A stretch of DNA of 59,621 nt from a phage, in the sequence record PZ049713.1. One strand, 5' to 3'. Positions within the stretch are counted from its first letter, which is position 1; the number at the start of each line of letters is the position of its first letter. Below are positions 1,252 through 59,156 of this stretch, piece by piece. The notes beneath the pieces were generated by a model. It ran no database searches. It had not been told where the DNA came from and saw only the letters and a list, made by a program, of their open reading frames with translations. A program made the translations under genes and the position numbers.

Positions 1252-1412
1252 GATAGGGGGAACCTCGGGCAATTTTTGGGCAGGGTACGGTTTTTCGAGG
1301 GCCCGTGAGGGCATGCAGCCCAGTAAATACGGGAGCATACCCCGCCAAAACCCCCATTAGAACTGCATGGTGATGTTGGCGGTAGAAATCAAGAGGCTTT
1401 ATCTCGCGGGTT

Positions 1413-2602: not shown

Positions 2603-2790
2603 TCTTCGTACCTTGATCGGCTGTAGTAGATTCGTCCATTGATGCGATTCCAGACGCCCTCGGGAATCTGGTTCCGGCTTCGCCTGCCTTCTAGGGCTCG
2701 ATCGGTTGTGCCAAGTATCATGGCCATCTGCTGCTCAGTCACCTTGTCGGGGAACCACTCCGGCAGATTCTCTAGTTTCTCTGCGCCCAT
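2227..2790 (-). pseudogene. Excisionase-like copy whose 3' end is fused out of frame into the integrase frame
   Basis: First ~100 aa are identical to 12283-12630. The ORF then continues as integrase sequence (TQAGIAAASRLRDQVV), showing an indel. Confidence 0.7.
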
Positions 2791-2793
2791 CCC

Positions 2794-3510
2794 TCACCCC
2801 CTCACCGTTACGCTGGCTGCTTCGATAACTTCAGGCAGCGTGTTCAAGTCCGTCAGCGTGAAATAGCCTTCATCCCGCCAGCCGACAGTGTCGATGTGAA
2901 CGACGTTGCCGAGGATTGCTGGCGTGCGCAGCGGGGTATGGCCGACCACAAGCGCGAGCAGGTCCGGTATCCCGCTTGTGTCGACCATCTCGATTCGAGT
3001 GCGCGACCACATACAGCTGTTCTTGACCAGTTTCAGGCGCTTCGGTGATTCCGGCGCGGTCAGCTCGGCGACCGTCTGAGCCCATGTCGGAAATGGGCAG
3101 TCGGCGTGCACGATGCCAACTAGCCCTGCGTCCGTCTCCAGTTCAATGGCGATCGGCAGCTCACGGAACTGGACGGCGTACTCTGCCTGCTCGTCGCTGT
3201 TGAGCGACAGGAACCAGCCGCCGCCGTTGATGAGCCAGTTGCCCAGCTCGCAGCTGTCGTACCGGCACACGTAGTCGTCGTGGTTGCCGCGCACCGGGTG
3301 GAACCAGGGCTTTGCCAGCCACTCCAGCGCCATGTCACATTCAGGGCCGCGATCAACCAGATCGCCAACCGAGAACAGACGATCGACTGCCGGGTCAAAG
3401 CCGATCCCGTCGAGCGCCTGCTGCAGCTTCGTAAAGCATCCGTGAATGTCGCCCACGGCAAAGTCACGGCCCGCCGTGTTCTTGGCGAACCGCTTGATGA
3501 GTTCGGGCAT
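2794..3510 (-). CDS. Ser/Thr protein phosphatase (lambda PPase-like metallophosphoesterase), duplicate copy
   Basis: 238-aa translation identical to 11563-12279. Motifs GDIHG, GDLVDRG, GNHD. Confidence 0.85.
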   Translation of the reverse strand: MPELIKRFAKNTAGRDFAVGDIHGCFTKLQQALDGIGFDPAVDRLFSVGDLVDRGPECDMALEWLAKPWFHPVRGNHDDYVCRYDSCELGNWLINGGGWFLSLNSDEQAEYAVQFRELPIAIELETDAGLVGIVHADCPFPTWAQTVAELTAPESPKRLKLVKNSCMWSRTRIEMVDTSGIPDLLALVVGHTPLRTPAILGNVVHIDTVGWRDEGYFTLTDLNTLPEVIEAASVTVRG

Positions 3511-3535
3511 GCTCTATCTCCTGCTGCGTGTGGGG

Positions 3536-3748
3536 TTAGGCGAGCTGAGCCGGCGCCCATCCTTTGATCTTGTCGACGGCTATCGACTTGCGTGTTTGGG
3601 CGTCGTACCACATGAAGAAGCACTCATTTCCCATGAAGACTAATGAGGTTGTGGCTGCGCGCGTCCTGCCGTCTTTAAGGAAAAGCTGAATCGGCTTACC
3701 GGCAGGCGGCGGCTCGGTAACGGGTCGCATGAATGGAATTACAGGCAC
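3536..3748 (-). CDS. Hypothetical early protein, duplicate of 11326-11538
   Basis: Same translation as the right-arm copy from VPVIPFMRPV onward. Confidence 0.5.
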   Translation of the reverse strand: MPVIPFMRPVTEPPPAGKPIQLFLKDGRTRAATTSLVFMGNECFFMWYDAQTRKSIAVDKIKGWAPAQLA

Positions 3749-3807
3749 GAGCAAATCCTCCCCGCCGACTCTCGCCGGCAGACTGTGGGTTTGGGTGGGG
3801 TTAGGGG

Positions 3808-4476
3808 TCAGTACGGAATGCACTCTAAGCAGTTGCCGGTCCAGCCTTTCGCTCCACAGCCCGAGCAGACGTGTTCAGGCTCGGCCTCCTTCGCAGCCAT
3901 GGCGGCGCCATTCAGCTCCCCGACAACCTCGCACGCAATTGCGAATGCGTCATCGCCAAGCCGTGTTGCCCGCATGATTCTGTTCATGCCATCGATCAGT
4001 TGTTCGCGCTCGTCAATGACCGTCTTTACACGTAGCGGTATGTCGGCATATCCGTACCGAGTAAGCTCCGGCTCAGGCCCTCGGAGTGCCACTGCTGTCT
4101 TGCTCAGTAGGCCCGACAGCTTATCGCGCAGAGCGTCCAGCTCTGTCACTTCCTCCAGCAGCCTATCCCGCTCGGCGGTCACGGCTGATAGGGCGGTTAG
4201 CGGGACCAGCTGGCGAAGCTCATAGTCATCGCGACGCCGAAGTATTTCCAAGGTCCGCTCATCAGCGGATTGCCAACAGCTCGGGCCTTCGTCTGGGCAA
4301 ACGTATCGTTGCTGCCAAGCCACCACCTCGACCCCTTCCGCCTCTGCGGGCTGTTCAAGAATGGCGCGCAAATCTTCCGCCACCGAACCTTCAACGCAGC
4401 CACCACCTGGCGCGTGCACCTCAAGCCATGTCGCCGCGCTGTCCAACAGCTCCCGATCAACCAATACCTTGCTCAT
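3808..4476 (-). CDS. Hypothetical 222-aa early protein, duplicate of 10595-11263 (one V/I difference)
   Basis: The translation differs only at QQRYVCPDEG vs QQRYICPDEG. Confidence 0.75.
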   Translation of the reverse strand: MSKVLVDRELLDSAATWLEVHAPGGGCVEGSVAEDLRAILEQPAEAEGVEVVAWQQRYVCPDEGPSCWQSADERTLEILRRRDDYELRQLVPLTALSAVTAERDRLLEEVTELDALRDKLSGLLSKTAVALRGPEPELTRYGYADIPLRVKTVIDEREQLIDGMNRIMRATRLGDDAFAIACEVVGELNGAAMAAKEAEPEHVCSGCGAKGWTGNCLECIPY

Positions 4477-5124
4477 TCCACTGCCTCCAATGCCTTAGCC
4501 GGGTAAATCTGCACGCTGTTGCGATGGGCGCTGCTCTCGACTGCGTAGCCCTCTGGTGTCAGTTCCGTGGAGTAGGTGCCGCAGATATGGCCTTCCCACT
4601 CGCTGCCGGTGGACTTCTTCACGAGGTCGCCCATGCGGAACTTGCCTTGCGGGGCGGTCTGCGCGGAGCGGGTGAGTGACGCCGCGATGCGTTCGTGCTG
4701 GGCGACGGTCATATACTCCCCGTCGTCATCATCGGTCATATACGCCTCAACCTCAGAGGCGCGCCCGCAATGCGGCACGCTGGTCATCGGGCTGAACCGC
4801 TCCACCGCCTCCCGCTCATCCTGCGCCGGGCTGGCTCGTCGCCCTCCAGCTCTGCCGCTAGCTCGGGATTGCACACTGAGCAACCATCGCCAACCGTGCG
4901 CTCTCGCATCGTGCAGCGGCATTCCGACTCGGCCTGCTGGGATAGGGCGTCCTGATCCGTCCAGCCAGCGTGATCATGGAAAGGTGCAGGCCGCAGCCAT
5001 CGCCGTAGTGTTCGGCTTGGCAATCGACCACCTGCTGCGACGACCCGCGCATCGCTTCGTTCTCCGCCTTCGCAGCCCCCAGCTCAGCGCCGATTCGCCC
5101 GGCTACCTTCAGTGTGTCGTTCAT
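4473..5124 (-). pseudogene. Frameshifted copy of the DfrB-like fusion gene (9945-10598)
   Basis: The N-terminal part is in ORF 4858-5124 and the C-terminal DfrB-like part in ORF 4473-4922. C4->C3 change at gacgagccagccc(c)ggcgcagg. Confidence 0.85.
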
Positions 5125-5526
5125 TGCTCAATCTCCTTGATTGTGGCCAGCGGCAGCCCGCTCATTGCCAGCGGCTCGTCGTAGCAGACGCCCATCATCT
5201 CGGGCCATTTACGCGGCTCGCCCGGGTTTGATGGCGCCCTGGTATATGCCGGTCCCATGCCAGCCGATGCCGGATGACCTCGATACAAGTCCCACGCAAT
5301 GCCATCCTCGCGGCGCTTCGTGGCCTCCGGCATCAGTGTGCAGCCAGGCGCTGGATCTCGTGCCGCGTGGCGTGGACCTGCTCCCAGTCGCGCCGGTCGT
5401 AGAACCCGGCAGCCGCTCAATGGCGTGATCTGATCTGGCCGATCTTGATGCGTGCCAGTAGCTCACAGGCCTCTTGCAGCTCGGCGGCCTGGCGCTCGAG
5501 TTACGTGTGATGGTGTAGGTGCGCAT
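5121..5526 (-). pseudogene. Frameshifted copy of 9544-9948
   Basis: MRTYTIT start in ORF 5209-5526. The C-terminal ...PLATIKEIEQ sits in ORF 5121-5420 in another frame. Confidence 0.8.
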
Positions 5527-5834
5527 TGGCGCCTCCTCGGCGGCTCCGGTGGGCGGCAGCGGAAACAGGGCGCATGGCCGATCCGCTTCCGTCTGTGCGG
5601 CAGAAGATTGGTGCGTTCACAGCGGCAGCGACCTGCACCGCAAGGCATTCGGCCTCGCCGTGGGGTGATGCAAGCCGATTCACTCGATCGCGCCACTCGT
5701 CCATCGACTCCCTGTGTCAGGGTGGCGGCCCGGCTTGTGGCATTCGGGCTGGAGAGGGCAGGCGCTGCAGCTGCTGCGGGACTTGAAGTTGTAGTGCTGG
5801 CGGCAGAGGGCCTTGGCGGTGTCGGATAGCTGGG

Positions 5835-6077
5835 TCACGGAGCAGATCCTTCGTAGCGGCTCACGCGGCGCAATGCGCGGCTCGACGTCGATGAACCGGA
5901 GCCTCGGAAGTCGCCATCGGTAGCGCGGCGACTGTCCACCTCAAGGCGCGCCGTGGCGTTAACCTCGGCCGCGACCTCGGCTACAGCCTTCGCTTGTCTC
6001 AATCGAGTAGGCTGCCGGCCAGCACGCCCTCCATCGTCTTGCCGAGGCATGGCGCGCAGATCACTGAGGTTGTTCAT
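5835..6077 (-). pseudogene. Frameshifted copy of 8995-9234
   Basis: MNNLSDLRA start and the AKAVA.VAAEVNATARLEVD core are kept. The flanks are out of frame. Confidence 0.7.
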
Positions 6078-6709
6078 GGTGCTCTCCAGTTTGTCGAGCT
6101 TCCGCTCGAACCAGCCGAGCGTTATGGCTGCCTGGCGACCCTCGGGCGGATAGCGTTCGATTGAGTTGCGGCGCATGTCTTGTGCGGGTGACTAGCTCGA
6201 GGTTGTCGATTCCAGATGTTGGCGGGGTTGCGATCCTTGAAGACGAGGAAGTGCCCAGCCGGCACTGGGCCGCTGTGCCTTCCCACAACATCACGTGGAC
6301 CGGGCGCCAGTCAGTGCGCTTGTTGCCGGTGTCCGCCACCTTGCGGTAGAGGATGCCGCCCTTGTCGGTGCGCTCCGCTCCGATGGGGCGCCAGGTGTTC
6401 GATGGTCGGTGACCCAGCTTGAACTGCGTGTCCTTGGCCCGGCCTCCTGCCTGCCATCCTTTGCGGCCAGAGTTCCATGTCTGGTGGCCAGGCTTGAACC
6501 TGCCGCAGCCTGTGATTTCCTTGAACTCATCCGGTCGCGTTAGCTCCGAGTTTCGACACGCGATCGTGAATCGAGCCAGTGCCGCGCCCCATCAAGGCTG
6601 CTATCTCGGTGATGGGGCTTGGTGGCATAACAGTTCTGCCAGTGTTGCTGTCCTCTGCCGGCGTCCAGTGCCGGTATTCCGTGCGCCTCCTGCCGGCCAG
6701 TGGGCTCAT
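6061..6709 (-). pseudogene. Frameshifted copy of the HNH_3 endonuclease gene (8364-9011)
   Basis: The MSPLAGRRRTEYRHWTPAED start is embedded in ORF 6527-6877. The C-terminal ...HHEQPQ is in ORF 6061-6339. Confidence 0.8.
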
Positions 6710-6986
6710 TTCTTCCGTCTCCCGTGCGTTGTGGCTGTCCAGCCCGGCGCTGGCTACTTGGTTGCCGTGGTCAGCTATCAGGCTGTCGATCAGGGCGCCC
6801 ATGTAGGCGACTAGGCCAGTGACTGTTTCACCACGGGCCATCGCGCTGTGGGTGTGCTTCTCGCCGTTGGGCAGCACGAACCACGCGCTGGCGTTCCAGC
6901 TCGGAAGGGCGCCGAGGCTCAGTGCCGCGAACTACTGGCCGCGACACTCGGTTGTCGATTGAATAGAGCGTCACGATGCAGCTCAT
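6706..6986 (-). pseudogene. Disrupted copy of 8089-8367
   Basis: Start codon cat at 6984-6986. Only the C-terminal part (LPNGEKHTHSAMARGETV...) stays in frame, and it is fused to the HNH copy. Confidence 0.7.
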
Positions 6987-7138
6987 GGCTGGCACACCTC
7001 CAGCAGTGCCGCGTCGCTCAGATCACCAAGCGGCGCAGCGATGTATTGAGCAAGCGCGTAGACGCCCCACGGCTTGCCAGCGATTTCCGCCCGGTACGCC
7101 GCGTGACGGATGGCGTCGAGCACGTCGGGGAATCTCAT
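6983..7138 (-). CDS. Hypothetical 51-aa protein, duplicate of 7937-8092 (one T/A difference)
   Basis: MRFPDVLDAIRHAAYRAEIAGKPWGVYALAQYIAAPLGDLSDAALLEVCQP forms the tail of ORF 6983-8116. Confidence 0.6.
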   Translation of the reverse strand: MRFPDVLDAIRHAAYRAEIAGKPWGVYALAQYIAAPLGDLSDAALLEVCQP

Positions 7139-7426
7139 GGCCACTCCTGCCGCAGCACGTCGTTCTGCTTGGCCTGCGGAGTGCCGCGCTTGCGCAGAGG
7201 GAGGCTGTTCGATACGGCAGAGTTGCGGGCGCCACGCTTGCGGCTGCGCTGGTCCGCCTCCGCGTTTCCGGCGTTGTTGAAGACGGCAGGCTTGATCTCT
7301 ATCGGCTTGCCGATGCTGTCGGGCAGCAGCTGGATCTTTCCGCCAGCGCTCAGGAATGCAGCCGGGCCGCGTCATCTGCGCGCGCGGAGCCTCGCCCTGC
7401 GCGACGGCATGGTTGTCGATGAGCGT
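7135..7426 (-). pseudogene. Copy of 7647-7940 with lost start codon and a frameshift
   Basis: The ATG equivalent reads cgt (7424-7426). The translation TLIDNHAVAQGEAPRAQ then shifts frame. Confidence 0.75.
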
Positions 7427-7477
7427 GGGTGCGTACCGGGGAGGGGGCGGTGGCGCCGGGTGGATCAGATCAGCAGC

Positions 7478-7589
7478 AAGGGCAGCCGCAGCAACAGCGT
7501 CAAGGCCAGCCACAACGCAGCCAGCAGGCGGCGCCTCCAGCCTATGATGACGATGTGCCATTCGCCAACCCCTACTGCGGCGCCCGCTC
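7478..7589. other. Unique 112-bp loop (hinge) between the two palindrome arms; native 3' end of the SSB-like gene
   Basis: gatcagcagc (7468-7477) pairs with gctgctgatc (7590-7599). The sequence between them matches 58694-58805 in direct orientation. Confidence 0.9.
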
Positions 7590-7646
7590 GCTGCTGATCT
7601 GATCCACCCCGGGCGCCCAGCGCGCCCTCCTCCCCGGTACACACCC

Positions 7647-7940
7647 ATGCTCATAGACAACCATGCCATAGCGCAGGGCGAGGCTCTGCGCGCGCAAATT
7701 GACGCGGCCACGGCTGCATTCCTGAACGCTGGCGGAAAGATCCAGCTGCTGCCCGACAGCATCGGCAAGCCGATAGAGATCAAGCCTGCCGTCTTCAACA
7801 ACGCCGGAAACGCGGAGGCGGACCAGCGCAGCCGCAAGCGTGGCGCCCGCAACTCTGCCGTATCGAACAGCCTCCCTCTGCGCAAGCGCGGCACTCCGCA
7901 GGCCAAGCAGAACGACGTGCTGCGGCAGGAGTGGCCATGA
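7647..7940 (+). CDS. Hypothetical early protein (97 aa)
   Basis: ORF with an ATGA stop/start overlap to the next gene. Identical second copy at 58863-59156. Confidence 0.7.
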   Translation: MLIDNHAIAQGEALRAQIDAATAAFLNAGGKIQLLPDSIGKPIEIKPAVFNNAGNAEADQRSRKRGARNSAVSNSLPLRKRGTPQAKQNDVLRQEWP

Positions 7941-8092
7941 GATTCCCCGACGTGCTCGACGCCATCCGTCACGCGGCGTACCGGGCGGAAATCACTGGCA
8001 AGCCGTGGGGCGTCTACGCGCTTGCTCAATACATCGCTGCGCCGCTTGGTGATCTGAGCGACGCGGCACTGCTGGAGGTGTGCCAGCCATGA
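7937..8092 (+). CDS. Hypothetical small protein (51 aa)
   Basis: ATGA-type coupling overlaps at both ends (7937-7940 and 8089-8092). Confidence 0.6.
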   Translation: MRFPDVLDAIRHAAYRAEITGKPWGVYALAQYIAAPLGDLSDAALLEVCQP

Positions 8093-8367
8093 GCTGCATC
8101 GTGACGCTCTATTCAATCGACAACCGAGTGTCGCGGCCAGTAGTTCGCGGCACTGAGCCTCGGCGCCCTTCCGACTGGAACGCCAGCGCGTGGTTCGTGC
8201 TGCCCAACGGCGAGAAGCACACCCACAGCGCGATGGCCCGTGGTGAAACAGTCACTGGCCTAGTCGCCTACATGGGCGCCCTGATCGACAGCCTGATAGC
8301 TGACCACGGCAACCAAGTAGCCAGCGCCGGCTGGACGGCCACAACGCACGGGAGACGGAAGAAATGA
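8089..8367 (+). CDS. Hypothetical early protein (92 aa)
   Basis: The ATG at 8089 overlaps the upstream stop, and the stop overlaps the next start at 8364. Confidence 0.7.
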   Translation: MSCIVTLYSIDNRVSRPVVRGTEPRRPSDWNASAWFVLPNGEKHTHSAMARGETVTGLVAYMGALIDSLIADHGNQVASAGWTATTHGRRKK

Positions 8368-9011
8368 GCCCACTGGCCGGCAGGAGGCGCACGGAATACC
8401 GGCACTGGACGCCGGCAGAGGACGCAACACTGGCAGAACTGTATGCCACCAAGCCCATCACCGAGATAGCAGCCTTGATGGGGCGCGGCACTGGCTCGAT
8501 TCACAATCGCGTGTCGAAACTCGGACTGACGCGACCGGATGAGTTCAAGGAAATCACAGGCTGCGGCAGGTTCAAGCCTGGCCACCAGACATGGAACTCT
8601 GGCCGCAAAGGATGGCAGGCAGGAGGCCGGGCCAAGGACACGCAGTTCAAGCTGGGTCACCGACCATCGAACACCTGGCGCCCCATCGGAGCGGAGCGCA
8701 CCGACAAGGGCGGCATCCTCTACCGCAAGGTGGCGGACACCGGCAACAAGCGCACTGACTGGCGCCCGGTCCACGTGATGTTGTGGGAAGAGCACAGCGG
8801 CCCAGTGCCGGCTGGGCACTTCCTCGTCTTCAAGGATCGCAACCCCGCCAACATCTCAATCGACAACCTCGAGCTAGTCACCCGCGCAGAGAACATGCGC
8901 CGCAACTCAATCGAACGCTATCCGCCCGAGTATCGCCAGGCAGCCATAACGCTCGGCTGGTTCAAGCGGAAGCTCAACAAACTGGAGCAGCACCATGAAC
9001 AACCTCAGTGA
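8364..9011 (+). CDS. HNH_3-type homing endonuclease-like protein
   Basis: 215 aa. C-terminal ...NPANISIDNLELVTRAENMRRN is typical of HNH_3 phage endonucleases. N-terminal HTH-like ITEIAALMGRGTGSIHNRVSKLG. Confidence 0.75.
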   Translation: MSPLAGRRRTEYRHWTPAEDATLAELYATKPITEIAALMGRGTGSIHNRVSKLGLTRPDEFKEITGCGRFKPGHQTWNSGRKGWQAGGRAKDTQFKLGHRPSNTWRPIGAERTDKGGILYRKVADTGNKRTDWRPVHVMLWEEHSGPVPAGHFLVFKDRNPANISIDNLELVTRAENMRRNSIERYPPEYRQAAITLGWFKRKLNKLEQHHEQPQ

Positions 9012-9234
9012 TCTGCGCGCCATCCTCGGCAAGACGATGGAGGGCGTGCTGGCCGGCACCTACTCGATTGAACAAGCGAAGGCTGTAGCCCAGGTCGCGG
9101 CCGAAGTTAACGCCACGGCGCGCCTTGAGGTGGACATGGCCCGCGCTACCGATGGCGACTTCCGAGGCTCCGGTTTCATCGACGTCGAGCCGCGCATTGC
9201 GCCGCGTGAGCCGCTACGGAGGATTGCTCCGTGA
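8995..9234 (+). CDS. Hypothetical protein (79 aa)
   Basis: ORF within the co-oriented, tightly packed early operon. Confidence 0.6.
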   Translation: MNNLSDLRAILGKTMEGVLAGTYSIEQAKAVAQVAAEVNATARLEVDMARATDGDFRGSGFIDVEPRIAPREPLRRIAP

Positions 9235-9452
9235 CCGAGCTATCCGACACCGCCAAGGCCATCTGCGCCCAGCACTACAACTTCAAGTCCCGCAGCAGCT
9301 GCAACGCCTGCCCTCTCCAGCCCGAATGCCACAAGCCGGCCGCCACCCTGACACAGGAGTCGATGGACGAGTGGCGCGATCGAGTGAATCGGCTTGCATT
9401 ACCCCACGGCGAGGCCGAATGCCTTGCGGTGCAGGAGTCGCTGCCGCTGTGA
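9231..9452 (+). CDS. Hypothetical Cys-rich protein (73 aa, GTG start)
   Basis: The GTG overlaps the upstream stop. Contains CAQHYNFKSRSSCNACPLQPEC. Confidence 0.55.
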   Translation: MTELSDTAKAICAQHYNFKSRSSCNACPLQPECHKPAATLTQESMDEWRDRVNRLALPHGEAECLAVQESLPL

Positions 9453-9543
9453 ACGCACCAATCTTCTGCCGCACAGACGGAAAGCGGATCGGCCAATGCG
9501 CCTGTTTCCGCTGCCGCCCACCGGAGCCGCCCAAGGAGGCGCC

Positions 9544-9948
9544 ATGCGCACCTACACCATCACCGTAACCGAGCGCCAGGCCGCCGAGCTGCAAGAGGCC
9601 TGTGAGCTACTGGCACGCATCAAGATCGGCCAGATCGATCACGCCATTGAGCGGCTGCCGGGCTTCTACGACCGGCGCGACTGGGAGCAGGTCCACGCCA
9701 CGCGGCACGAGATCCAGCGCCTGGCTAACACACTGATGCCGGAGGCCACGAAGCGCCGCGAGGATGGCATTGCGTGGGACTTGTATCAGGTCATCCGGCA
9801 TCGGCTGGCATGGGACCGGGCATATGACCAGGGCGCCATCAAACCCGGCGAGCCGCGTAAATGGCCCGAGATGATGGGCGTCTGCTACGACGAGCCGCTG
9901 GCAATGAGCGGGCTGCCGCTGGCCACAATCAAGGAGATTGAGCAATGA
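9544..9948 (+). CDS. Hypothetical early protein (134 aa)
   Basis: ATG at 9544 is preceded by an aaggagg RBS. The stop overlaps the next start at 9945. Confidence 0.75.
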   Translation: MRTYTITVTERQAAELQEACELLARIKIGQIDHAIERLPGFYDRRDWEQVHATRHEIQRLANTLMPEATKRREDGIAWDLYQVIRHRLAWDRAYDQGAIKPGEPRKWPEMMGVCYDEPLAMSGLPLATIKEIEQ

Positions 9949-48145: not shown

Positions 48146-48568
48146 TCAGGCGACCTTTACCGACTCGATCAGCACGTCGAGGCTCTTTTGCGCCTCTCCG
48201 ATCTCGCGCTTGATCAAGGCTTTCTCGGTTTGGGATACATGGCCGTCTTCCAGCGCTGCGGTGACGGCGCGGGTCACGTCGGCGACCTCTGCGTGCATGT
48301 GCAGGACGGCTGTGGAAAGCTGTTCCGACTTGGGGCGCTCCTTGGCTACCAGCTCGAAGCCGAACGAATCAGCCAGCGCTTCCAAGGGGCGCATATCGCC
48401 TGTGTGCAGCAGGATTCCGAACAGGTGCTCGATGGTCAGGTGATGGGCATCGTTGTCCGGGTTTGCGCGCTGAAGCAGGCTCACATGCGGAACGCCCATC
48501 TTTGCTGCCAGGGCCTTGGCTTCGTGGTCCAGCACTGCGGACTGGGTGGCTCTGAGGAAATCTTCCAT
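48146..48568 (-). CDS. CII-type regulatory protein (CP76 family-like)
   Basis: 140 aa, second gene of the rightward-equivalent operon after cro. HTH-like AAKMGVPHVSLLQRANP. Confidence 0.55.
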   Translation of the reverse strand: MEDFLRATQSAVLDHEAKALAAKMGVPHVSLLQRANPDNDAHHLTIEHLFGILLHTGDMRPLEALADSFGFELVAKERPKSEQLSTAVLHMHAEVADVTRAVTAALEDGHVSQTEKALIKREIGEAQKSLDVLIESVKVA

Positions 48569-48655
48569 CGCGTAAAACCTCTTTTCTCTTTCCGTGGAGC
48601 CCTACCGTTCGTCGGGCAATACTGGATTCATGGAAACCACTGACAGGGATGTCGC

Positions 48656-48838
48656 TTATGCAGCTACTGGAGCCTTGCGAACCGCCTTGAACTTGCCGCG
48701 GGACAGGACCTGAATTTGGTACTGGCGAGACTCGGGAACCGTCTCCCCCCACATGGTTACTGCGCTGGGGCGGATACCGAGGGCGTCCGCTAGCTTCTTC
48801 TTGCTGCCGAAGAAATCGGCCACGTCTTGAGTCTTCAT
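48656..48838 (-). CDS. cro: Cro-like repressor
   Basis: 60 aa HTH (KKKLADALGIRPSAVTMW), divergent from the cI-like gene across the operator region. Confidence 0.8.
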   Translation of the reverse strand: MKTQDVADFFGSKKKLADALGIRPSAVTMWGETVPESRQYQIQVLSRGKFKAVRKAPVAA

Positions 48839-48864
48839 TGCTCGACCTCGGGTTAGCTTGCCGC

Positions 48865-48941
48865 AATTTCAGCATGCTTAAATTACTAGGTCAAGCAATT
48901 ACTTAAGCGCAGTGCATGCTTAAATTCAGGATGCTTAACAT
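48865..48941. promoter_or_regulatory. OR: three operator sites with divergent PR/PRM
   Basis: aatttcagcatgcttaaatt (48865-48884), gcgcagtgcatgcttaaatt (48907-48926), aaattcaggatgcttaacat (48922-48941). Minus-strand PR is TTGACC(48894-48889)-17 nt-TGAAAT(48871-48866). Confidence 0.7.
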
Positions 48942-48948
48942 GTGTGTT

Positions 48949-49590
48949 ATGGAAAGACACGAACGCATCGCCCGCGCCATCCAGCTCAGCGGGCTAAAGA
49001 AGGGCGACATAGCCGCGAAGTGCAACGTGGCGAACTCGGCCGTCACTCAATGGCTTTCAGGCGAGAGCAAAAGCCTCAAGCCTGAAAACCTGTTTGCCTT
49101 AGCCAAGGCGACAGGCTTCAGCGCTATGTGGCTTGCTATCGAGGAAGGCCCAGAGCGCATCGAGAGCAACGTCGAGCTTGGGCCAGACATCACCAGCCCA
49201 TACCGCGAGATTCAGATCGTGGGCACTGCGCAGATGGGCACAGAGGGTTACTGGTACGCGCTGGATGAGGCGGACGGCATTGTTGAAGTGCCATCCCGCG
49301 ATCCTGGCGCCTACGCCCTGCGCCTTAAGGGGGACTCAATGGCCCCTGCGATCCGCTCTGGCTGGATTGCAGTCGTTGAGCCGAACCACCGTCTCGTTCC
49401 GCTCGAATACGTGATGATCCGACTGCATGACGGCGAGTGCATGCTCAAGGAGCTGCTTCAAGCCACCGATGAGGAAGTGGTTGTGCAGTCAGTCAACGAG
49501 CAGTTCGGGCGCCGAACCATTCCGACAGACCAGATTGAAACGATCCACTATGTCGGCCACATCGTGGCGCCTAGCAAGGTTAGGGTTTAA
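48949..49590 (+). CDS. cI: CI-like repressor (XRE HTH plus S24 LexA-like peptidase)
   Basis: HTH KKGDIAAKCNVANSAVTQWLSG. S24 motifs LKGDSMAP and MLKEL. The ATG at 48949 leaves almost no leader (longest ORF from 48916 starts inside the operators). Confidence 0.85.
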   Translation: MERHERIARAIQLSGLKKGDIAAKCNVANSAVTQWLSGESKSLKPENLFALAKATGFSAMWLAIEEGPERIESNVELGPDITSPYREIQIVGTAQMGTEGYWYALDEADGIVEVPSRDPGAYALRLKGDSMAPAIRSGWIAVVEPNHRLVPLEYVMIRLHDGECMLKELLQATDEEVVVQSVNEQFGRRTIPTDQIETIHYVGHIVAPSKVRV

Positions 49591-49619
49591 GGGTGCGTTG
49601 AGTTGAGCGAGCAGGGATA

Positions 49620-50330
49620 GTGCGGCACAGCGATTGGATTGTCTTCGTAGATGAAAGCGGAGATCACAGCCTAGAATCGATTGACGATGCGTACCCAGTG
49701 TTCGTGCTGACTTTCTGCGTGATCAGCAAAGACGAATACCTGCAGAAGCTAGTGCCCCGAGTGAAGCGCCTAAAGTTCGACCTGTTTGGGCACGATAAGG
49801 TCATCCTTCACGAATCTGAGATAAACCGGAAGAAGGGCGCATTCTCTCGCATGCCGAAAGAGGATCGGGATTCGCTGATGGTCACGCTTGGAGCAATCGT
49901 TGCCGAGACACACTTTCAAATCTTCGCGATCATCATCGACAAGATTCAACACAAGCGGCGCTATTCAAAGCCTGCCCACCCATACCATCTAGCCATGCAG
50001 CTCGGGCTTGAACGCATATATGGCTTCTTGCGTAGCAAAGGACAATGCGAGCGGGACACGCACTTCATCTTTGAGGCGCGAGGAAACAAGGAGGACCTTG
50101 ACCTTGAGCTGGCCTTTAGGCGAGTTTGCGACGGAGATAATTTCGCTGGAGCTACCTACCCGTTTCAAATCGTAATTGCGGACAAAAAGACTAACTGCGA
50201 AGGCTTGCAGGTCGCCGACCTTACAGCTCGTCCAATCGGACTATCTGTGCTGAGGCCGGAACAAGAAAATCGAGCGTATGAGATTCTGCGGAAGAAGATG
50301 AATCGGTACGGAAGAAAGATCTTCCCGTAG
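49620..50330 (+). CDS. DUF3800-family protein
   Basis: N-terminal WIVFVDESGDHS is typical of DUF3800. 30 nt downstream of cI on the same strand. Confidence 0.65.
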   Translation: MRHSDWIVFVDESGDHSLESIDDAYPVFVLTFCVISKDEYLQKLVPRVKRLKFDLFGHDKVILHESEINRKKGAFSRMPKEDRDSLMVTLGAIVAETHFQIFAIIIDKIQHKRRYSKPAHPYHLAMQLGLERIYGFLRSKGQCERDTHFIFEARGNKEDLDLELAFRRVCDGDNFAGATYPFQIVIADKKTNCEGLQVADLTARPIGLSVLRPEQENRAYEILRKKMNRYGRKIFP

Positions 50331-50497
50331 CCCAGAAAGCGAAAAGCCCCTGAGACAAGTCCCAAGGGCTTAGCGCCGGCCGCGTAGTCGCAACCCATTT
50401 ATCGAAATTCTATTGCGAAACCTACCCCGGCCTTCACCGGATCAATCTCGCAATCCAACTATAGGACAACCTTTATCCGAATGCAATCGGACACCAA

Positions 50498-50521
50498 GCC
50501 CCGCACCACGCGGGGCTTTTT
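50498..50521 (+). terminator. Strong intrinsic terminator
   Basis: gccccgc-accac-gcggggc followed by ttttt. Confidence 0.8.
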
Positions 50522-50653
50522 GTGTCTGCACCACCCTCCCCTACTTAGGTCTGAGCAACTTCTTTACATGTGGCAACCGGCCACCATGTTTCCTCTTGCC
50601 CGGTGAAACCCTCACAATTACTGTGTGGATATCCAGCATTAAGGAGGGCCACA

Positions 50654-50911
50654 ATGAATCGGATGCAACCTCACGCCATCACCCACCACTGCCAAGCATC
50701 GACCTATAGCCGCTTGGTGCGCCGGGTAAATCTAGCGCTGACGGCGCCAACAGCGCAGCGCGAACGCCAAGCCAATCTCAGGCCAGGCCCGGATGATCGC
50801 CCCGAAGACTGGGAGCGCCTTCTTGAGGAAATCGAACAGGCCGACAACGTGACCATGCGACGACGACCAGACGGAAGCGTCCATGTGATCTGGCGGTGCG
50901 CAAGCTGCTAG
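50654..50911 (+). CDS. Hypothetical protein (85 aa)
   Basis: ATG at 50654 is preceded by an aaggagg RBS. The upstream part of ORF 50570-50911 lacks an RBS. Confidence 0.6.
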   Translation: MNRMQPHAITHHCQASTYSRLVRRVNLALTAPTAQRERQANLRPGPDDRPEDWERLLEEIEQADNVTMRRRPDGSVHVIWRCASC

Positions 50912-50996
50912 CTGCATGCTTGCATTTCATGTTTGACATGCTTGCTTAGCGGTGGCCAAATGCAAGCACATAAAACTGTGCGAGGATTTTGCAAGC

Positions 50997-52010
50997 ATGA
51001 GCGAGCCAACCGGAAAGGCCAAAGGAGGAGTCGCGCGCGCCCATGCGCTAACGGCTGACGAGAGGAAGGATATCGCCAAGAAGGCTGCGGAGGCCCGTTG
51101 GGCTGCGCCAAAGGCGTTATACGTCGGAGAGCTGTCTATCGGGGAGCTAACCATCGATTGCGCAGTGCTGCCAGACGGCACGCGAGTGCTCTCGCAACGC
51201 GGAGTCGGTCGGGCGCTTGGCCGCAGCTATGGTGGCAAAGACTTCCGCGTCTCCGGCGACGAAGATGCCGGTGGGAAACTACCCTTTTTCATGAATGCAA
51301 ACACCCTAAAACCCTTTATTTCCAGTGAGTTAGCGGCGCTGGTCTCAAAGCCAATTCCGTATCGACACGAGCAAGGCGGCGGCGTGGCGCACGGTATAAG
51401 TGCAAGCGCCCTTCCCCAGATATGCGAAGTTTGGCTCAAGGCAAGGGAGGCTGGCGGGCTTACCAAGGTTCAGCTACCAATGGCGGCAAAGGCCGAAATA
51501 ATCATGCGCGGCCTGGCGCACATTGGCATCACCGCGCTTGTCGATGAAGCGACCGGTTACCAAGAGGTCCGCGACAAGCAGGCGCTCCAGGCGATCCTTG
51601 ACCAGTACCTGCGCAAGGAGCTGGCTGCATGGGCTAAGCGGTTTCCAGACGAATTCTATGCTCAGATGTTCAGGCTGAAAGGTTGGCAGCGAAAAGACCT
51701 AAGCTCGCCTTCACGGCGCCCAGGTGCTGCTGGGATGTACACCAATGATCTGGTCTACGAGCGGCTGGCTCCGAACATCCTTGCAGAGCTGGAGGCTCGC
51801 AACCCAAAGGACGCTAAAGGCAATAGGAGAGGCAAGCACCACCAGCTTCTAACCGATGACGTAGGGCACCCGGCGCTAGCGCAGCACTTGCACGCACTGA
51901 TCGCTCTAATGCGCGCCTCGCCTTCCTGGGACCAGTTCATGCTTATGGTCAACACAGCCTTCCCAAAAAAGAACGACACCCTGCTGCTGGACTTGCAGCC
52001 CTGCGACTAG
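50997..52010 (+). CDS. P63C-domain protein
   Basis: ...GELTIDCAVLPDGTRVLSQRGVGRALG... resembles the P63C domain N-terminus. Alternative GTG start at 50952. Confidence 0.55.
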   Translation: MSEPTGKAKGGVARAHALTADERKDIAKKAAEARWAAPKALYVGELSIGELTIDCAVLPDGTRVLSQRGVGRALGRSYGGKDFRVSGDEDAGGKLPFFMNANTLKPFISSELAALVSKPIPYRHEQGGGVAHGISASALPQICEVWLKAREAGGLTKVQLPMAAKAEIIMRGLAHIGITALVDEATGYQEVRDKQALQAILDQYLRKELAAWAKRFPDEFYAQMFRLKGWQRKDLSSPSRRPGAAGMYTNDLVYERLAPNILAELEARNPKDAKGNRRGKHHQLLTDDVGHPALAQHLHALIALMRASPSWDQFMLMVNTAFPKKNDTLLLDLQPCD

Positions 52011-52031
52011 TTGCGGGAACACTGAAACTAT

Positions 52032-52055
52032 AGCCCGCCACTGAGCGGGCTTTTT
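52032..52055 (+). terminator. Intrinsic terminator after the P63C gene
   Basis: agcccgc-cactga-gcgggct followed by tttt. Confidence 0.8.
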
Positions 52056-52065
52056 CTTGCCTGCG

Positions 52066-52119
52066 AATTTCAGCAAGCTTAAAAAAAGACTTGACCGATA
52101 AATTCAGCATGCTTAAATT
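52066..52119 (+). promoter_or_regulatory. OL/PL: early-left promoter with two operator sites
   Basis: aatttcagcaagcttaaaaa (52066-52085). TTGACC (52091-52096)-17 nt-TAAATT (52114-52119), with operator aaattcagcatgcttaaatt (52100-52119) across the spacer and -10. Confidence 0.7.
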
Positions 52120-52380
52120 ACACCCATCGACGCAGCACACCGCGCCGACAGGCCGAGAGGCCTCGGGTGATCCCGAAATGCTCTTTATACAACTCGACGT
52201 GACCCAACGACGTACCGGCCAACCCGGTGGTGAGAAAGCTAAACCGTCGTCCATGCCAGCTCTGGAACTGGCCGTGGCTCCACATGCAGCCACGCGAAGT
52301 TGCGAAATGTCACCCGGTGCGACGCCAGTTGCGGCAGCGGGAAAGAGACGACTCAGACAAGGAATCGCAGCGGAGACAGG

Positions 52381-52401
52381 TAATTCGGAATTTCCGAATT
52401 A
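52381..52401. promoter_or_regulatory. Perfect 21-bp palindrome TAATTCGGAA-T-TTCCGAATTA in the early-left leader
   Basis: 10-bp arms with a 1-nt centre, AT-rich, about 105 bp upstream of the first early-left gene. Confidence 0.6.
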
Positions 52402-52507
52402 TCAGCCAAGCCCACCGTGGCAAGTAACGGAGGCTAGCAAGACAGAAGATTCCTCGGTGCGCCTCAAGTTGGGCGCATCAGGGGGAATCCACTGGAAGGA
52501 GTGAGTA

Positions 52508-52720
52508 ATGAACATCAGCGTTTTGAATTTCGAAGCCTACAAGATCGACGTAAACCCAGCCAGCCGCACGCTAATGGGCGTCTCGGCATACGACGCGGAC
52601 GGCGCCACGGTGCTGGACAACTTCGACATCGAGCAGATCGTGAACCACTTCGGGGCCGGCGAATTGCTGGATGAGATCGGCGAGCAGGTCGCCCGCCGCC
52701 ACTTTGAGATTGAGGGATAG
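52508..52720 (+). CDS. Hypothetical early protein (70 aa)
   Basis: Strong RBS ggaaggag upstream of the ATG. Confidence 0.7.
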   Translation: MNISVLNFEAYKIDVNPASRTLMGVSAYDADGATVLDNFDIEQIVNHFGAGELLDEIGEQVARRHFEIEG

Positions 52721-54306: not shown

Positions 54307-54769
54307 CCCCCGCCTGAACCAGCCAGGCCAGACCCCCAGGTCTGCGATAACCGTACGGCGCGCGGTGCTGGTAGCGCCATGAACAAACCGCCGAGCGCAG
54401 CGGCCCTTCGGGATACCTGCGACGAGGATCAGCCGGACAGTGCCTCGATTGCAGAAAACCCCGGCAGCCATCCATGGGATTTTCCACAGCTTTGCCCGAG
54501 GGGATGGCCGAGTGACTGGCGTTACCAGTCGGCATCGGAGAGTGATCTGAATGCGCAGGCTGATGCGACGCCCATAGCGAGGCGACACGGCGGTAAAGCC
54601 ATTACGTTGTGCCGGGATCAGCTCCGGCCAGATCACTCCCCGATGCCACTGCATCACCCCTTCCCACGCCCATCCGGGCAACCGAGGTATCGACCATGAA
54701 GCACTACGGACCCATAGGGCGCCGCGAACAGCCGTGCCCGGATGACAGCGTTTCCGCGAGGATTCAACG

Positions 54770-58479: not shown

Positions 58480-58818
58480 ATGGCCAAGCACAAATACGAC
58501 GTGGTAGCCACGGTCGGAAAGTACGAGAAGAACGGCGAAACCAAGTACATCAGCCGGAAGGTCGGCGCGGTCATCCAGACCGACAAGGGCTTCCGCATGA
58601 AGATGGACGCCTTCTTCAATCCGGCCGGCTGCAAGGTCGACGAAGACGGATCTATCTGGCTTGCCCTTTTTGAGCCGCGCGACGATCAGCAGCAAGGGCA
58701 GCCGCAGCAACAGCGTCAAGGCCAGCCACAACGCAGCCAGCAGGCGGCGCCTCCAGCCTATGATGACGATGTGCCATTCGCCAACCCCTACTGCGGCGCC
58801 CGCTCGCTGCTGATCTGA
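58480..58818 (+). CDS. ssDNA-binding-like protein with Q/P-rich linker and SSB-type acidic DDDVPF motif
   Basis: 112 aa. ...QQQGQPQQQRQGQPQRSQQAAPPAYDDDVPF followed by 12 more residues. Recombination-module position. Confidence 0.6.
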   Translation: MAKHKYDVVATVGKYEKNGETKYISRKVGAVIQTDKGFRMKMDAFFNPAGCKVDEDGSIWLALFEPRDDQQQGQPQQQRQGQPQRSQQAAPPAYDDDVPFANPYCGARSLLI

Positions 58819-58862
58819 TCCACCCCGGGCGCCCAGCGCGCCCTCCTCCCCGGTACACACCC

Positions 58863-59156
58863 ATGCTCATAGACAACCATGCCATAGCGCAGGGCGAGGC
58901 TCTGCGCGCGCAAATTGACGCGGCCACGGCTGCATTCCTGAACGCTGGCGGAAAGATCCAGCTGCTGCCCGACAGCATCGGCAAGCCGATAGAGATCAAG
59001 CCTGCCGTCTTCAACAACGCCGGAAACGCGGAGGCGGACCAGCGCAGCCGCAAGCGTGGCGCCCGCAACTCTGCCGTATCGAACAGCCTCCCTCTGCGCA
59101 AGCGCGGCACTCCGCAGGCCAAGCAGAACGACGTGCTGCGGCAGGAGTGGCCATGA
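58863..59156 (+). CDS. Hypothetical early protein (second copy of 7647-7940)
   Basis: Identical translation. Confidence 0.7.
   Translation: MLIDNHAIAQGEALRAQIDAATAAFLNAGGKIQLLPDSIGKPIEIKPAVFNNAGNAEADQRSRKRGARNSAVSNSLPLRKRGTPQAKQNDVLRQEWP

What the first reader, a model, noticed from the sequence alone, without database searches (positions are those of the whole stretch)
49620..52010. Lysogen-expressed cargo in the rexAB position: DUF3800, an 85-aa ORF and a P63C-domain protein between OR and OL
The cI-like gene (48949-49590) is followed on the same strand, 30 nt later, by a DUF3800 protein (49620-50330). Next come a strong terminator (50498-50521), an 85-aa ORF with a perfect RBS (50654-50911), and a P63C-domain protein (50997-52010) with its own terminator (52032-52055). 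The whole block is bracketed by the OR operators (48865-48941) and the OL/PL operators (52066-52119). In lambda this interval holds rexA-rexB, transcribed with cI in the lysogen and mediating exclusion of other phages (established). By analogy these genes are candidates for prophage-encoded superinfection exclusion or abortive infection. As far as I know neither DUF3800 nor P63C has an assigned defence role. The P63C gene has its own TTGACA (50933-50938) and a cluster of CATGCTTGC motifs (50915-50923, 50937-50945, inverted at 50991-50999) that share CATGCTT with the immunity operators, hinting at repressor-linked control.
Basis: inference. Interest (0 to 1): 0.65.

Follow-up and report, generated by a model that had tools for sequence, protein, structure and literature searches.

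The report
Three accessory cassettes plus hidden sRNA
The stretch between the repressor gene and the leftward promoter of this Pseudomonas phage holds three independent accessory gene cassettes, and one of them pairs an RNase H-like nuclease with a previously unnoticed small structured RNA that always travels with it and often sits inside restriction-enzyme operons, which makes it a good candidate for a new kind of phage-defence or addiction module.

Summary

The block is not one rexAB-like unit. It is a mosaic of three separately mobile cassettes.

1. DUF3800 is an RNase HII-like nuclease with no promoter of its own, so it is probably read with cI. This RNA follows the gene in 139 of 139 loci across many phyla. 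On the minus strand, 18 of 22 base pairs show compensatory changes. No Rfam family matches it. The pair recurs after cI in other phages, at Pf prophage ends, on plasmids, and between hsdS and hsdR in type I restriction operons.
2. DUF1654 lies behind a conserved LexA-type box, so it is probably SOS-induced rather than lysogen-expressed.
3. The P63C gene carries its own promoter with four ATGCTTGCAT-type sites. These sites travel with the gene into unrelated prophage positions, so they are not CI operators.

A defence or toxin-antitoxin-like role for DUF3800+sRNA is plausible but untested.

The parts
48868..48938 (.). OR: two CI operator cores (48868-48881, 48925-48938) between cro (minus strand) and cI (plus strand)
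   Evidence: the only matches in the window apart from OL; expected by chance 0.33
48949..49590 (+). cI-type repressor (HTH_3 + Peptidase_S24)
   Evidence: Pfam 1.5e-14 and 8e-7; phrog_4, 1.6e-34
49620..50330 (+). DUF3800 protein, 236 aa, RNase HII-like fold, GTG start. Carries the DE motif (VDESGDH) and the QxxD motif (QVADL)
50331..50404 (-). Convergent structured sRNA gene, about 68-74 nt. It has hairpin P2', then a long hairpin P1a+P1 followed by UUCU (an intrinsic terminator ending 4-7 nt past the DUF3800 stop codon).
   Evidence: conserved motif, model R1, window score 79 bits; 135 C·A/A·C cells against 2 G·U on the plus strand; minus strand: 95.1% of cells paired, 18 of 22 pairs with compensatory changes, 290 cells against 75 in shuffles; MFE -35.8, z -4.8 on minus; -21.3, z -2.2 on plus; present in 139 of 139 DUF3800 loci; no Rfam match
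50407..50412 (-). Candidate -10 box (TAGAAT) of the sRNA, at the position where most loci have a sigma-70 -10 box. The window has no good -35 here
   Evidence: the -10 ends 8-15 nt before P2' in 62 of 85 loci; inference for this window
50458..50487 (-). Alternative sRNA promoter: ATTGCA (50487..50482), 18 nt, TATAGT (50463..50458). It would give a longer 5' leader
   Evidence: inference. The Pseudomonas clade shares TGCTTTAAT at a similar distance
50496..50526 (+). Intrinsic terminator ending the cI-DUF3800 transcript. It lies at the junction with the DUF1654 cassette
   Evidence: 9-bp stem, 7 G-C pairs, T-run; window 50495-50653 is 94% identical to PS-1
50621..50636 (+). LexA-type SOS box CTGTGTGGATATCCAG, 4 nt before the DUF1654 ribosome-binding site
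   Evidence: the same box precedes DUF1654 in PS-1 and in L097, and a near-box in L003; bioRxiv 10.1101/072470; its function is inferred
50654..50911 (+). DUF1654 protein, 85 aa
   Evidence: PF07867, 1.4e-17; phrog_2707, 4.5e-23
50915..50999 (+). P63C cassette control region. Four ATGCTTGCAT/ATGCAAGCAT-type sites (cores at 50917-23, 50939-45, 50962-68, 50991-97) lie around TTGACA (50933-50938) and over the ribosome-binding site and start codon
   Evidence: clustering; the same layout precedes P63C genes in L086-L090, and partly in ST104 and Lodos
50997..52010 (+). P63C-domain protein, 337 aa. It has an N-terminal basic KGGxARAxxLxxEER motif, a small beta-rich domain, and the helical P63C domain with invariant LVDEATGYQ
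52032..52059 (+). Intrinsic terminator of the P63C cassette
   Evidence: (a similar terminator follows the gene in L086 and ST104)
52069..52119 (+). OL operators (52069-52082, 52103-52116) and PL-like promoter TTGACC-17-TAAATT (52091-52119)

Best explanation
The cI-to-PL interval of this ~51-kb lambdoid Pseudomonas phage is a hotspot that has collected three independent cassettes, each regulated in its own way.

Cassette 1: a two-gene module.
- It holds a DUF3800 RNase HII-like nuclease and a dedicated ~70-nt structured sRNA.
- The sRNA is transcribed towards the nuclease gene from the opposite strand. It ends in an intrinsic terminator just past the DUF3800 stop codon.
- DUF3800 has no promoter of its own and borrows that of the gene in front: cI here, hsdS or an integrase elsewhere. 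In a lysogen it would therefore be made together with the repressor.
- The cI-DUF3800 transcript runs antisense through the whole sRNA gene up to the terminator at 50496-50526.
- I propose that protein and RNA work as one unit. The RNA binds the nuclease and either holds it in check (antitoxin-like) or directs it. The unit would act as an abortive-infection or addiction module, comparable in position and logic to PrrC in type I restriction loci.

Cassette 2: DUF1654. It is a small protein behind a LexA-type box, repressed in the quiet lysogen and induced by DNA damage.

Cassette 3: the P63C protein. It is a self-contained moron with its own promoter, four palindromic sites and a terminator. 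It most likely encodes a DNA-binding protein that regulates itself.

Shown: the anatomy, the RNA structure and its strand, the strict linkage of RNA and gene, the RNase H fold, the modularity and the genomic contexts. Inferred: co-transcription with cI, RNA-protein binding, the defence or toxin role, LexA control and P63C autoregulation.

The confidence of 0.6 is for the whole picture. For the parts: about 0.9 for the three-cassette anatomy and the existence of the minus-strand structured RNA, about 0.45 for a defence or addiction role of the pair, and about 0.3 for the specific idea that the RNA restrains or directs the nuclease.
For: RNA gene:
- Nucleotide-level conservation right after the DUF3800 stop codon, from Pseudomonas to Chlamydiae, Verrucomicrobia and Nitrospirae.
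- Covariance model hits in 139 of 139 loci, and none in control loci apart from one 18-bit hit.
- Minus-strand structure: 95.1% of cells paired, 18 of 22 pairs with compensatory changes, 290 cells against 75 in shuffles, and at most 37 in slid controls.
- Strand: 135 C·A/A·C cells against 2 G·U on the plus strand, and folding energy -35.8 against -21.3 kcal/mol.
- A sigma-70 promoter at a fixed distance on the minus strand in 62 of 85 loci.
- The U-rich tail was flagged as a minus-strand terminator.

Arguments that the RNA is more than an antisense transcript:
- Its sequence is better conserved than the protein (75-90% nucleotide identity against 48-60% amino-acid identity).
- The two hairpin loops change together: TAGT in both, or GAAC/GAAT-type in both.

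Context:
- Type I specificity subunit upstream in 13 of 67 loci, and type I restriction subunit downstream in 15 of 79. A 4-nt hsdS/DUF3800 overlap is seen in L011, L014 and L037.
- After cI in 11 of 41 viral contigs, and in JBD68, L003 and L097.
- At the Pf prophage end after the integrase, once beside a SIR2 gene.
- On plasmids beside parA or DUF4238.

Modularity.
LexA box: and bioRxiv 10.1101/072470.
P63C control region conserved across unrelated positions.

Literature: DUF3800 genes associate with at least 11 other structured RNA motifs of unknown function, often ending in terminators (PMC5737381). DUF3800 is the accessory domain of type VII retrons (PMC7736814).
Against: - There are no expression data for this phage.
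- In the window and its Pseudomonas relatives the sRNA promoter is weak or non-consensus. The window has TAGAAT without a -35, or ATTGCA-18-TATAGT further upstream.
- PADLOC, NCBIfam and PHROGs give DUF3800 no functional hit.
- About 70-80% of genomic loci have ordinary housekeeping neighbours.
- A JBD68 lysogen lacking p-fimU, which still carries the DUF3800 homologue gp43, was sensitive to all F10-like phages tested (PMC12952977). Any protection is therefore not broad.
- RNA-protein binding and toxicity are pure inference.
- The LexA box has C where the consensus has A in its right arm. The pattern itself is not rare in the window (7 matches, 3.7 expected). Only its conserved position argues for function.
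Confidence: 0.6

Rival explanations
1. The three genes form one rexAB-like, lysogen-expressed exclusion block under CI-linked control, and the CATGCTTGC sites act as weak CI operators for the P63C gene.
For: The position between cI and PL is bracketed by operators. DUF3800 directly follows cI. The CATGCTT heptamer is shared between the operators and the P63C sites. ST104-type phages also place P63C between cI and N.
Against: The genes assort independently. Identical DUF3800 genes sit next to different cI alleles and different downstream genes. The DUF1654 segment is shared with PS-1, which has no DUF3800. P63C genes with the same four-site promoter lie in tail, lysis and integrase regions of other prophages. 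A strong terminator separates DUF3800 from the rest. DUF1654 has a LexA-type box. There is no homology to RexA or RexB.
Confidence: 0.1
2. The conserved element after DUF3800 is not a separate RNA gene. It is only a cis element of the DUF3800 mRNA, either a 3'-UTR stabiliser or a bidirectional terminator.
For: It lies immediately after the stop codon in every locus. One hairpin looks like a terminator. The window itself has no strong sigma-70 promoter for it.
Against: The mismatch pattern is strand-specific: 135 C·A/A·C cells against 2 G·U on the mRNA strand. The element therefore folds well only as the opposite strand. The U-tract follows the hairpin on the minus strand only. A promoter sits at a fixed distance on the minus strand in 62 of 85 loci. 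A simple terminator would not keep its loop and linker sequences across phyla.
Confidence: 0.1
3. The sRNA is a classical cis-antisense regulator, like a type I toxin-antitoxin pair. It would pair with the 3' end of the DUF3800 mRNA and trigger its decay, with no protein-RNA complex.
For: The two genes converge. In this phage the cI-DUF3800 transcript must read through the full complement of the sRNA before the terminator at 50496. Convergent 3'-overlapping antitoxin RNAs are known in Bacillus type I systems (my own knowledge).
Against: Antisense pairing is automatic and places no constraint on sequence. Yet sequence, structure and loop motifs are conserved more strongly than the protein. Other DUF3800 genes have unrelated structured RNAs on either side and in either orientation, without overlap (PMC5737381), which points to a trans-acting partner. 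The 'toxin' would be a 236-aa nuclease, not a small membrane peptide. The two roles do not exclude each other.
Confidence: 0.2
4. DUF3800 plus its RNA is a selfish mobile element. An RNase H-fold recombinase or nuclease would use its RNA for its own spread, as IS605 TnpB uses its omega RNA. There would be no benefit to the phage or the host.
For: The distribution is patchy across phyla, phages, plasmids and chromosomes. An identical cassette sits in different backgrounds. The fold is RNase H-like. RNase H-fold nucleases with adjacent RNAs include TnpB and IscB (my own knowledge).
Against: No conserved sequence lies upstream of the gene, and no second end or terminal repeat was found. The protein is small, with no added DNA-binding or guide-binding domain. 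The RNA has no obvious variable guide segment. The best fold matches are RNase HII and HIII, not transposases.
Confidence: 0.1

Closest known systems
DUF3800-associated RNA motifs (DUF3800-I to -XI; Weinberg et al. 2017, PMC5737381; Rfam RF02969 and RF02968 among others)
   Same: A conserved structured non-coding RNA lies next to a DUF3800 gene and ends in an intrinsic terminator. It can lie on the opposite strand. Its function is unknown.
   Different: No Rfam 15 family matches this RNA in the window or in 17 other loci. This motif is tied to one highly conserved ~245-aa DUF3800 subfamily. It has a fixed convergent position and is found in prophage immunity regions and in type I restriction operons. 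I could not read the supplement that describes motifs II-XI, so identity with a motif that is not in Rfam cannot be fully excluded.
Lambda rexA-rexB (and sieB or 933W stk as other cargo of the immunity region)
   Same: Accessory genes sit between cI and PL, on the cI strand, in a position to be transcribed with the repressor in the lysogen.
   Different: There is no sequence or domain similarity. Here there are three unrelated cassettes with three different predicted controls, and one of them includes an RNA gene.
PrrC / RloC anticodon nucleases embedded in type I restriction-modification loci (my own knowledge)
   Same: In 13-15 of about 79 species-level loci the DUF3800+sRNA pair sits between hsdS and hsdR on the same strand. 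I recall prrC occupying this slot in the prr locus.
   Different: The fold is different (RNase H-like, not ABC-ATPase plus ACNase). The likely partner is a dedicated sRNA rather than the restriction complex. No activity has been shown.
Type VII retrons (RT + msr/msd + DUF3800; Mestre et al. 2020, PMC7736814)
   Same: A DUF3800 RNase H2-like protein is coupled to a structured non-coding nucleic acid in a predicted defence system.
   Different: There is no reverse transcriptase here. PADLOC retron models do not match. This protein keeps the C-terminal QxxD motif that the paper says the retron clade lacks.
Type III toxin-antitoxin/abortive-infection systems (ToxIN, my own knowledge)
   Same: A nuclease is paired with a dedicated structured RNA, carried on phages and plasmids, with a terminator between the partners.
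   Different: There are no tandem RNA repeats. The RNA gene lies downstream and converges on the nuclease gene rather than lying upstream on the same strand. The nuclease fold is different.
P63C / KilA-N / Bro / Ant family of modular phage DNA-binding proteins (Pfam PF10546; phrog_2899 'anti-repressor Ant')
   Same: The C-terminal P63C domain is shared. The genes are stand-alone and sit in moron positions (between cI and N in ST104, in the nin region of 933W).
   Different: This subfamily (phrog_2384) has no assigned function. Its conserved four-site promoter has not, to my knowledge, been described.

Membership tests
Lambda RexAB-type exclusion operon | Genes lie between cI and PL on the cI strand | tested here: met
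   the block 49620-52010 lies between OR and OL/PL, all on the plus strand like cI
Lambda RexAB-type exclusion operon | Homology to RexA/RexB | tested here: not met
   the Pfam hits are DUF3800, DUF1654 and P63C only
Lambda RexAB-type exclusion operon | Co-transcribed with cI in the lysogen; excludes superinfecting phages | not testable with these tools
   Needs RNA-seq and plaque assays. Only DUF3800 lacks an intervening terminator
DUF3800 (PF12686) | Pfam score above the gathering cut-off | tested here: met
   63.4 bits against a cut-off of 21
DUF3800 (PF12686) | N-terminal DE motif and C-terminal QxxD motif (PMC7736814) | tested here: met
   D11, E12, Q197 and D200 are invariant in 26 sequences
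DUF3800 (PF12686) | RNase H2-like fold | tested here: met
DUF3800-associated structured RNAs (Weinberg 2017) | Conserved structured RNA next to a DUF3800 gene, supported by covariation | tested here: met
DUF3800-associated structured RNAs (Weinberg 2017) | Match to one of the described motifs held in Rfam | tested here: not met
   (E up to 5) and 29: no Rfam hit at the element in the window or in 17 loci
Type VII retron | Adjacent reverse transcriptase and msr/msd | tested here: not met
   no PADLOC hit; no RT among the neighbours
Type III toxin-antitoxin (ToxIN-like) | Tandem repeats of the antitoxin RNA upstream of the toxin gene | tested here: not met
   a single RNA copy, downstream and convergent; no conserved upstream sequence
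Type III toxin-antitoxin (ToxIN-like) | RNA binds and neutralises the nuclease | not testable with these tools
   Needs biochemistry or genetics
Known defence systems (PADLOC-DB 2.0.0) | HMM match of any of the three proteins | tested here: not met
   no hit at E up to 0.1, apart from a chance HamB fragment at E 0.075
RM-embedded suicide nucleases (PrrC-like), by position | Located between hsdS and hsdR of a type I system | tested here: met
   13 of 67 upstream and 15 of 79 downstream neighbours. This holds in other genomes, not in this window
DUF1654 (PF07867) | Pfam score above the cut-off | tested here: met
   63.6 bits against 27
LexA (SOS) regulon | CTGT-N8-ACAG box in the promoter region | tested here: inconclusive
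   CTGTGTGGATATCCAG (C in place of A in the right arm). It is conserved in position before DUF1654 in 3 contexts, with a near-match in a fourth. Binding was not tested
P63C (PF10546) | Pfam score above the cut-off | tested here: met
   106.4 bits against 26.1

The most novel reading that the evidence does not exclude
DUF3800 plus its convergent sRNA is a new, widespread class of RNA-dependent immunity or addiction module. It would be a minimal RNase H-fold nuclease whose activity is gated or targeted by one dedicated structured sRNA. It would be distinct from CRISPR, Argonaute, retron and type III toxin-antitoxin systems. Temperate phages (behind cI), filamentous prophages, plasmids and type I restriction operons would carry it as a second line of defence. 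That would also give a function to the family of 'curious' DUF3800 RNA motifs left unexplained since 2017.
Probability: 0.3. Interest if true: 0.85.

Novelty: new variant of a known kind. Interest (0 to 1): 0.62.

Why it matters
Cargo in the repressor-to-PL slot is a proven source of phage-exclusion genes. Splitting this block into three units with different predicted controls shows which gene to test under which condition: with cI, under SOS, or autoregulated.

The larger point concerns DUF3800. Its link to many unrelated structured RNAs has been known since 2017 with no functional idea attached. Here one such pair is strictly linked in 139 of 139 loci and has a defined strand, structure, promoter and terminator. 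It sits in contexts that point to defence or addiction: restriction operons at the prrC slot, prophage immunity regions, Pf prophage ends and plasmid maintenance regions.

A relative also lies in a tractable model. It is phage JBD68 in P. aeruginosa PAO1, for which stranded lysogen RNA-seq is already public (PRJNA1364051). The question can therefore be tested directly.

Tried and rejected
- Rfam: gathering thresholds on the whole window, E up to 5 on 48500-52600, and gathering thresholds on 17 other loci. Nothing matched the element. The only hits were terminator look-alikes and a Proteo-phage-1 RNA elsewhere.
- PADLOC, NCBIfam and PHROGs gave no function for DUF3800.
- PDB sequence searches found nothing for P63C and only chance hits for DUF1654.
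- The supplement of Weinberg 2017, needed to compare motifs II-XI, is not held.
- E. coli genomes have no copy of the module.
- The literature holds no functional study under 'PF12686', 'DUF3800' or 'DUF1654'. A search for 'P63C' returned almost only unrelated p63 and crystallography papers.
- I first modelled the RNA on the plus strand. I rejected that strand once the C·A/G·U asymmetry and the folding energies were counted.
- I considered the CATGCTTGC cluster as CI operators. I rejected this because the sites travel with the P63C gene.
- I looked for a conserved upstream end of a mobile element and found none.
- I did not test co-evolution of protein residues with RNA loops, because shared ancestry would confound it.


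Full report
**1. The observation**

The region is a textbook lambdoid immunity region.
- cII (Phage_CP76, 48146-48568) and cro (P22_Cro, 48656-48838) lie on the minus strand.
- The cI-type repressor (HTH_3 + Peptidase_S24, 48949-49590) lies on the plus strand.

The CI operator core TTCAGCATGCTTAA occurs, with up to two mismatches, at four places only. Two lie between cro and cI (48868-81, 48925-38). Two lie at 52069-82 and 52103-16, around a TTGACC-17-TAAATT promoter that points away from cI. By chance 0.33 sites are expected.

Between these operator sets, all on the cI strand, lie:
- DUF3800 (49620-50330; Pfam E 5e-17);
- a strong terminator (stem 50496-50518);
- an 85-aa ORF with an AAGGAGG ribosome-binding site (50654-50911), which is a DUF1654 protein (E 1.4e-17);
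- a P63C protein (E 1e-30);
- a second terminator (stem 52032-52051).

Alignment with homologues supports the ATG at 50997 as the start of the P63C gene. All three copies of CATGCTTGC in the window fall within 50915-50999.

**2. The window itself**

Positions 70-7364 are an almost perfect inverted copy of 7711-15016. Positions 7468-7767 recur at 58684-58983, a spacing of 51,216 nt. An IMG/VR contig of 50,962 bp carries an identical DUF3800 gene. The window looks like a ~51-kb phage genome with a fold-back artefact at one end. No host flanks are visible.

**3. A missed RNA gene**

*Conservation and linkage.* The first ~72 nt after the DUF3800 stop codon are conserved at 75-90% nucleotide identity after DUF3800 homologues from Pseudomonas, Burkholderiales, Chlamydiae, Verrucomicrobia, Nitrospirae and others. 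The proteins are only 48-60% identical. A covariance model built from 30 copies finds the element 0-40 nt after the gene in every locus examined:
- 80 species-representative genomes, plus JBD68 and the window;
- 55 viral, Pf-prophage and other loci;
- two plasmids.

That makes 139 of 139. Control loci without DUF3800 give nothing except one 18-bit hit.

*Strand.* On the gene's strand the non-Watson-Crick cells are 135 C·A/A·C against 2 G·U. The element therefore folds properly only as the opposite strand.

*Structure.* On the minus strand a three-helix structure fits: P2' with 7 bp, P1a with 4 bp and P1 with 11 bp. In 99 distinct sequences 95.1% of cells are paired. Eighteen of 22 pairs show compensatory double changes, in 290 cells against 75 in column shuffles and at most 37 in slid controls. 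The window's minus-strand RNA folds at -35.8 kcal/mol (z -4.8). The plus strand gives -21.3 (z -2.2).

*Terminator and promoter.* On the minus strand the long hairpin is followed by a U-rich tail. It was scored as a minus-strand terminator and abuts the DUF3800 stop codon. In 62 of 85 loci the best sigma-70 promoter upstream on that strand has its -10 box ending 8-15 nt before the first helix. In the window a TAGAAT sits at that position (50412..50407) without a good -35. An ATTGCA-18-TATAGT promoter lies 50 nt further upstream. Pseudomonas relatives share a TGCTTTAAT extended -10 at a similar distance.

*Relation to known RNAs.* No Rfam 15 family matches the element. Weinberg et al. described eleven unrelated structured RNAs next to DUF3800 genes, several with terminators and on either strand, with no functional hypothesis (PMC5737381). 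This RNA belongs to that phenomenon but matches none of the motifs held in Rfam.

**4. The DUF3800 protein**

**5. Where the pair lives**

- After an S24 repressor on the same strand: the window, JBD68 (gp44→gp43), P. khavaziana, M. otitidis, and 11 of 41 viral contigs.
- At the end of Pf filamentous prophages in P. aeruginosa, after the integrase, and once beside a SIR2 gene.
- On 50 plasmid records, for example next to parA in M. extorquens p2METDI and next to DUF4238 in Shinella.
- Between hsdS and hsdR of type I restriction systems. The upstream neighbour is a type I specificity subunit in 13 of 67 loci. The downstream neighbour is a type I restriction subunit in 15 of 79. The gene sometimes overlaps hsdS by 4 nt.
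- Four further loci have MmeI-type restriction enzymes upstream.

As I recall, the hsdS-hsdR slot is where prrC sits in the prr locus.

No sequence upstream of the start codon is conserved across these contexts. The mobile unit is therefore the coding sequence plus the convergent RNA gene, and it uses the promoter of whatever gene lies in front. In this phage that is cI. Expression in the lysogen is thus likely but inferred.

**6. Mechanism proposed for the pair**

Four features argue that the RNA is a partner of the protein and not merely an antisense transcript.
- The linkage is strict.
- The RNA sequence is conserved more than the protein.
- The two hairpin loops change in parallel (TAGT-type in both, or GAAC/GAAT-type in both).
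- Other DUF3800 genes have non-overlapping RNAs.

I propose a nuclease-RNA unit in which the RNA restrains or directs the RNase H-like enzyme. It would act as an abortive-infection or addiction module.

In this phage the cI-DUF3800 transcript must also read through the complement of the whole sRNA gene before the terminator at 50496. An added antisense layer is therefore possible.

Evidence against a broad defence role:
- PADLOC has no match.
- Most chromosomal neighbours are housekeeping genes.
- A JBD68 lysogen without p-fimU was sensitive to all F10-like phages tested (PMC12952977).

**7. The other two cassettes**

*The junction.* Window 50495-50653, which holds the terminator and the DUF1654 upstream region, is 94% identical to phage PS-1. 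There it follows different genes behind cI. Phages with 100% identical DUF3800 have different cI alleles and different downstream genes. The DUF3800 and DUF1654 cassettes therefore join at about 50483-50495.

*DUF1654.* A LexA-type box, CTGTGTGGATATCCAG (50621-50636), lies 4 nt before the ribosome-binding site. The same box precedes DUF1654 in PS-1 and in M. otitidis, where the surrounding sequence differs. A near-match precedes it in P. khavaziana. Chromosomal DUF1654 genes of P. fluorescens are needed for cisplatin tolerance and are predicted LexA targets (bioRxiv 10.1101/072470). I infer SOS induction rather than expression in the quiet lysogen.

*P63C.* Upstream of the P63C gene there are four ATGCTTGCAT/ATGCAAGCAT-type sites. 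One lies before the -35 TTGACA box and one overlaps it. One covers the -10 region and one covers the ribosome-binding site and start codon. P63C genes in a tail-gene cluster (P. chlororaphis) and next to lysis or integrase genes (P. gorinensis) carry the same four-site layout. ST104 and Lodos carry part of it. The sites therefore belong to the cassette and not to this phage's repressor.

**8. Verdict**

- The rexAB analogy holds for position, and probably for co-transcription of DUF3800 only.
- The idea of one CI-linked block is not supported.
- The most interesting content is the DUF3800-sRNA pair. It is a new variant of the known but unexplained DUF3800-RNA association. Its genomic contexts make a defence or addiction role plausible, at about 0.45, and testable.

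Noticed in passing
window 70-7364 vs 7711-15016; 7468-7767 vs 58684-58983: The first 7.4 kb of the window is a near-perfect inverted copy of the next 7.4 kb. About 0.3-0.9 kb recurs directly 51,216 nt later. This looks like a ~51-kb circularly permuted phage genome with a fold-back assembly artefact. No host DNA is visible.
   Followed up: partly
window 54390-54469 (+): Rfam Proteo-phage-1 sRNA (RF03044), 70.2 bits against a gathering score of 42, in the early-left operon downstream of PL.
   Followed up: no
window 50621-50636: A LexA-type box lies directly before the DUF1654 gene. Its position is conserved before DUF1654 genes in PS-1 (L001) and M. otitidis (L097), with a near-match in P. khavaziana (L003).
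   Followed up: partly
L064 5352-5449, L069 5611-5684, L076 4887-4954: Some genomes carry a second, lower-scoring copy of the DUF3800-linked RNA motif a few hundred nt downstream of the first. Whether a second DUF3800 gene goes with it was not checked.
   Followed up: no
L011, L014, L037 (about 3953-3956): In type I restriction operons the DUF3800 start codon overlaps the hsdS stop codon by 4 nt. This suggests translational coupling with the specificity subunit.
   Followed up: no
L091-L096 (P. aeruginosa): The DUF3800+sRNA pair sits directly after the integrase at the end of Pf-type filamentous prophages (Zot, integrase). In L096 a SIR2_2 gene follows. As I recall, Pf4 of PAO1 carries the PfiT/PfiA toxin-antitoxin pair in this slot.
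   Followed up: partly
L098, L099, L101 (IMG/VR contigs): Three viral contigs have DUF3800 genes 100% identical to the window's. Their repressors differ in length (262, 233 and 224 aa) and so do the downstream genes. The recombination junction appears to lie inside the 3' end of cI.
   Followed up: partly
window 48865-48884 and 52100-52119: The CI operator is a 20-bp near-palindrome, AATTT(C/A)AGCATGCT(G/T)AAATT. Only two cores were found on each side, not lambda's three per side, unless a weaker third site exists.
   Followed up: no
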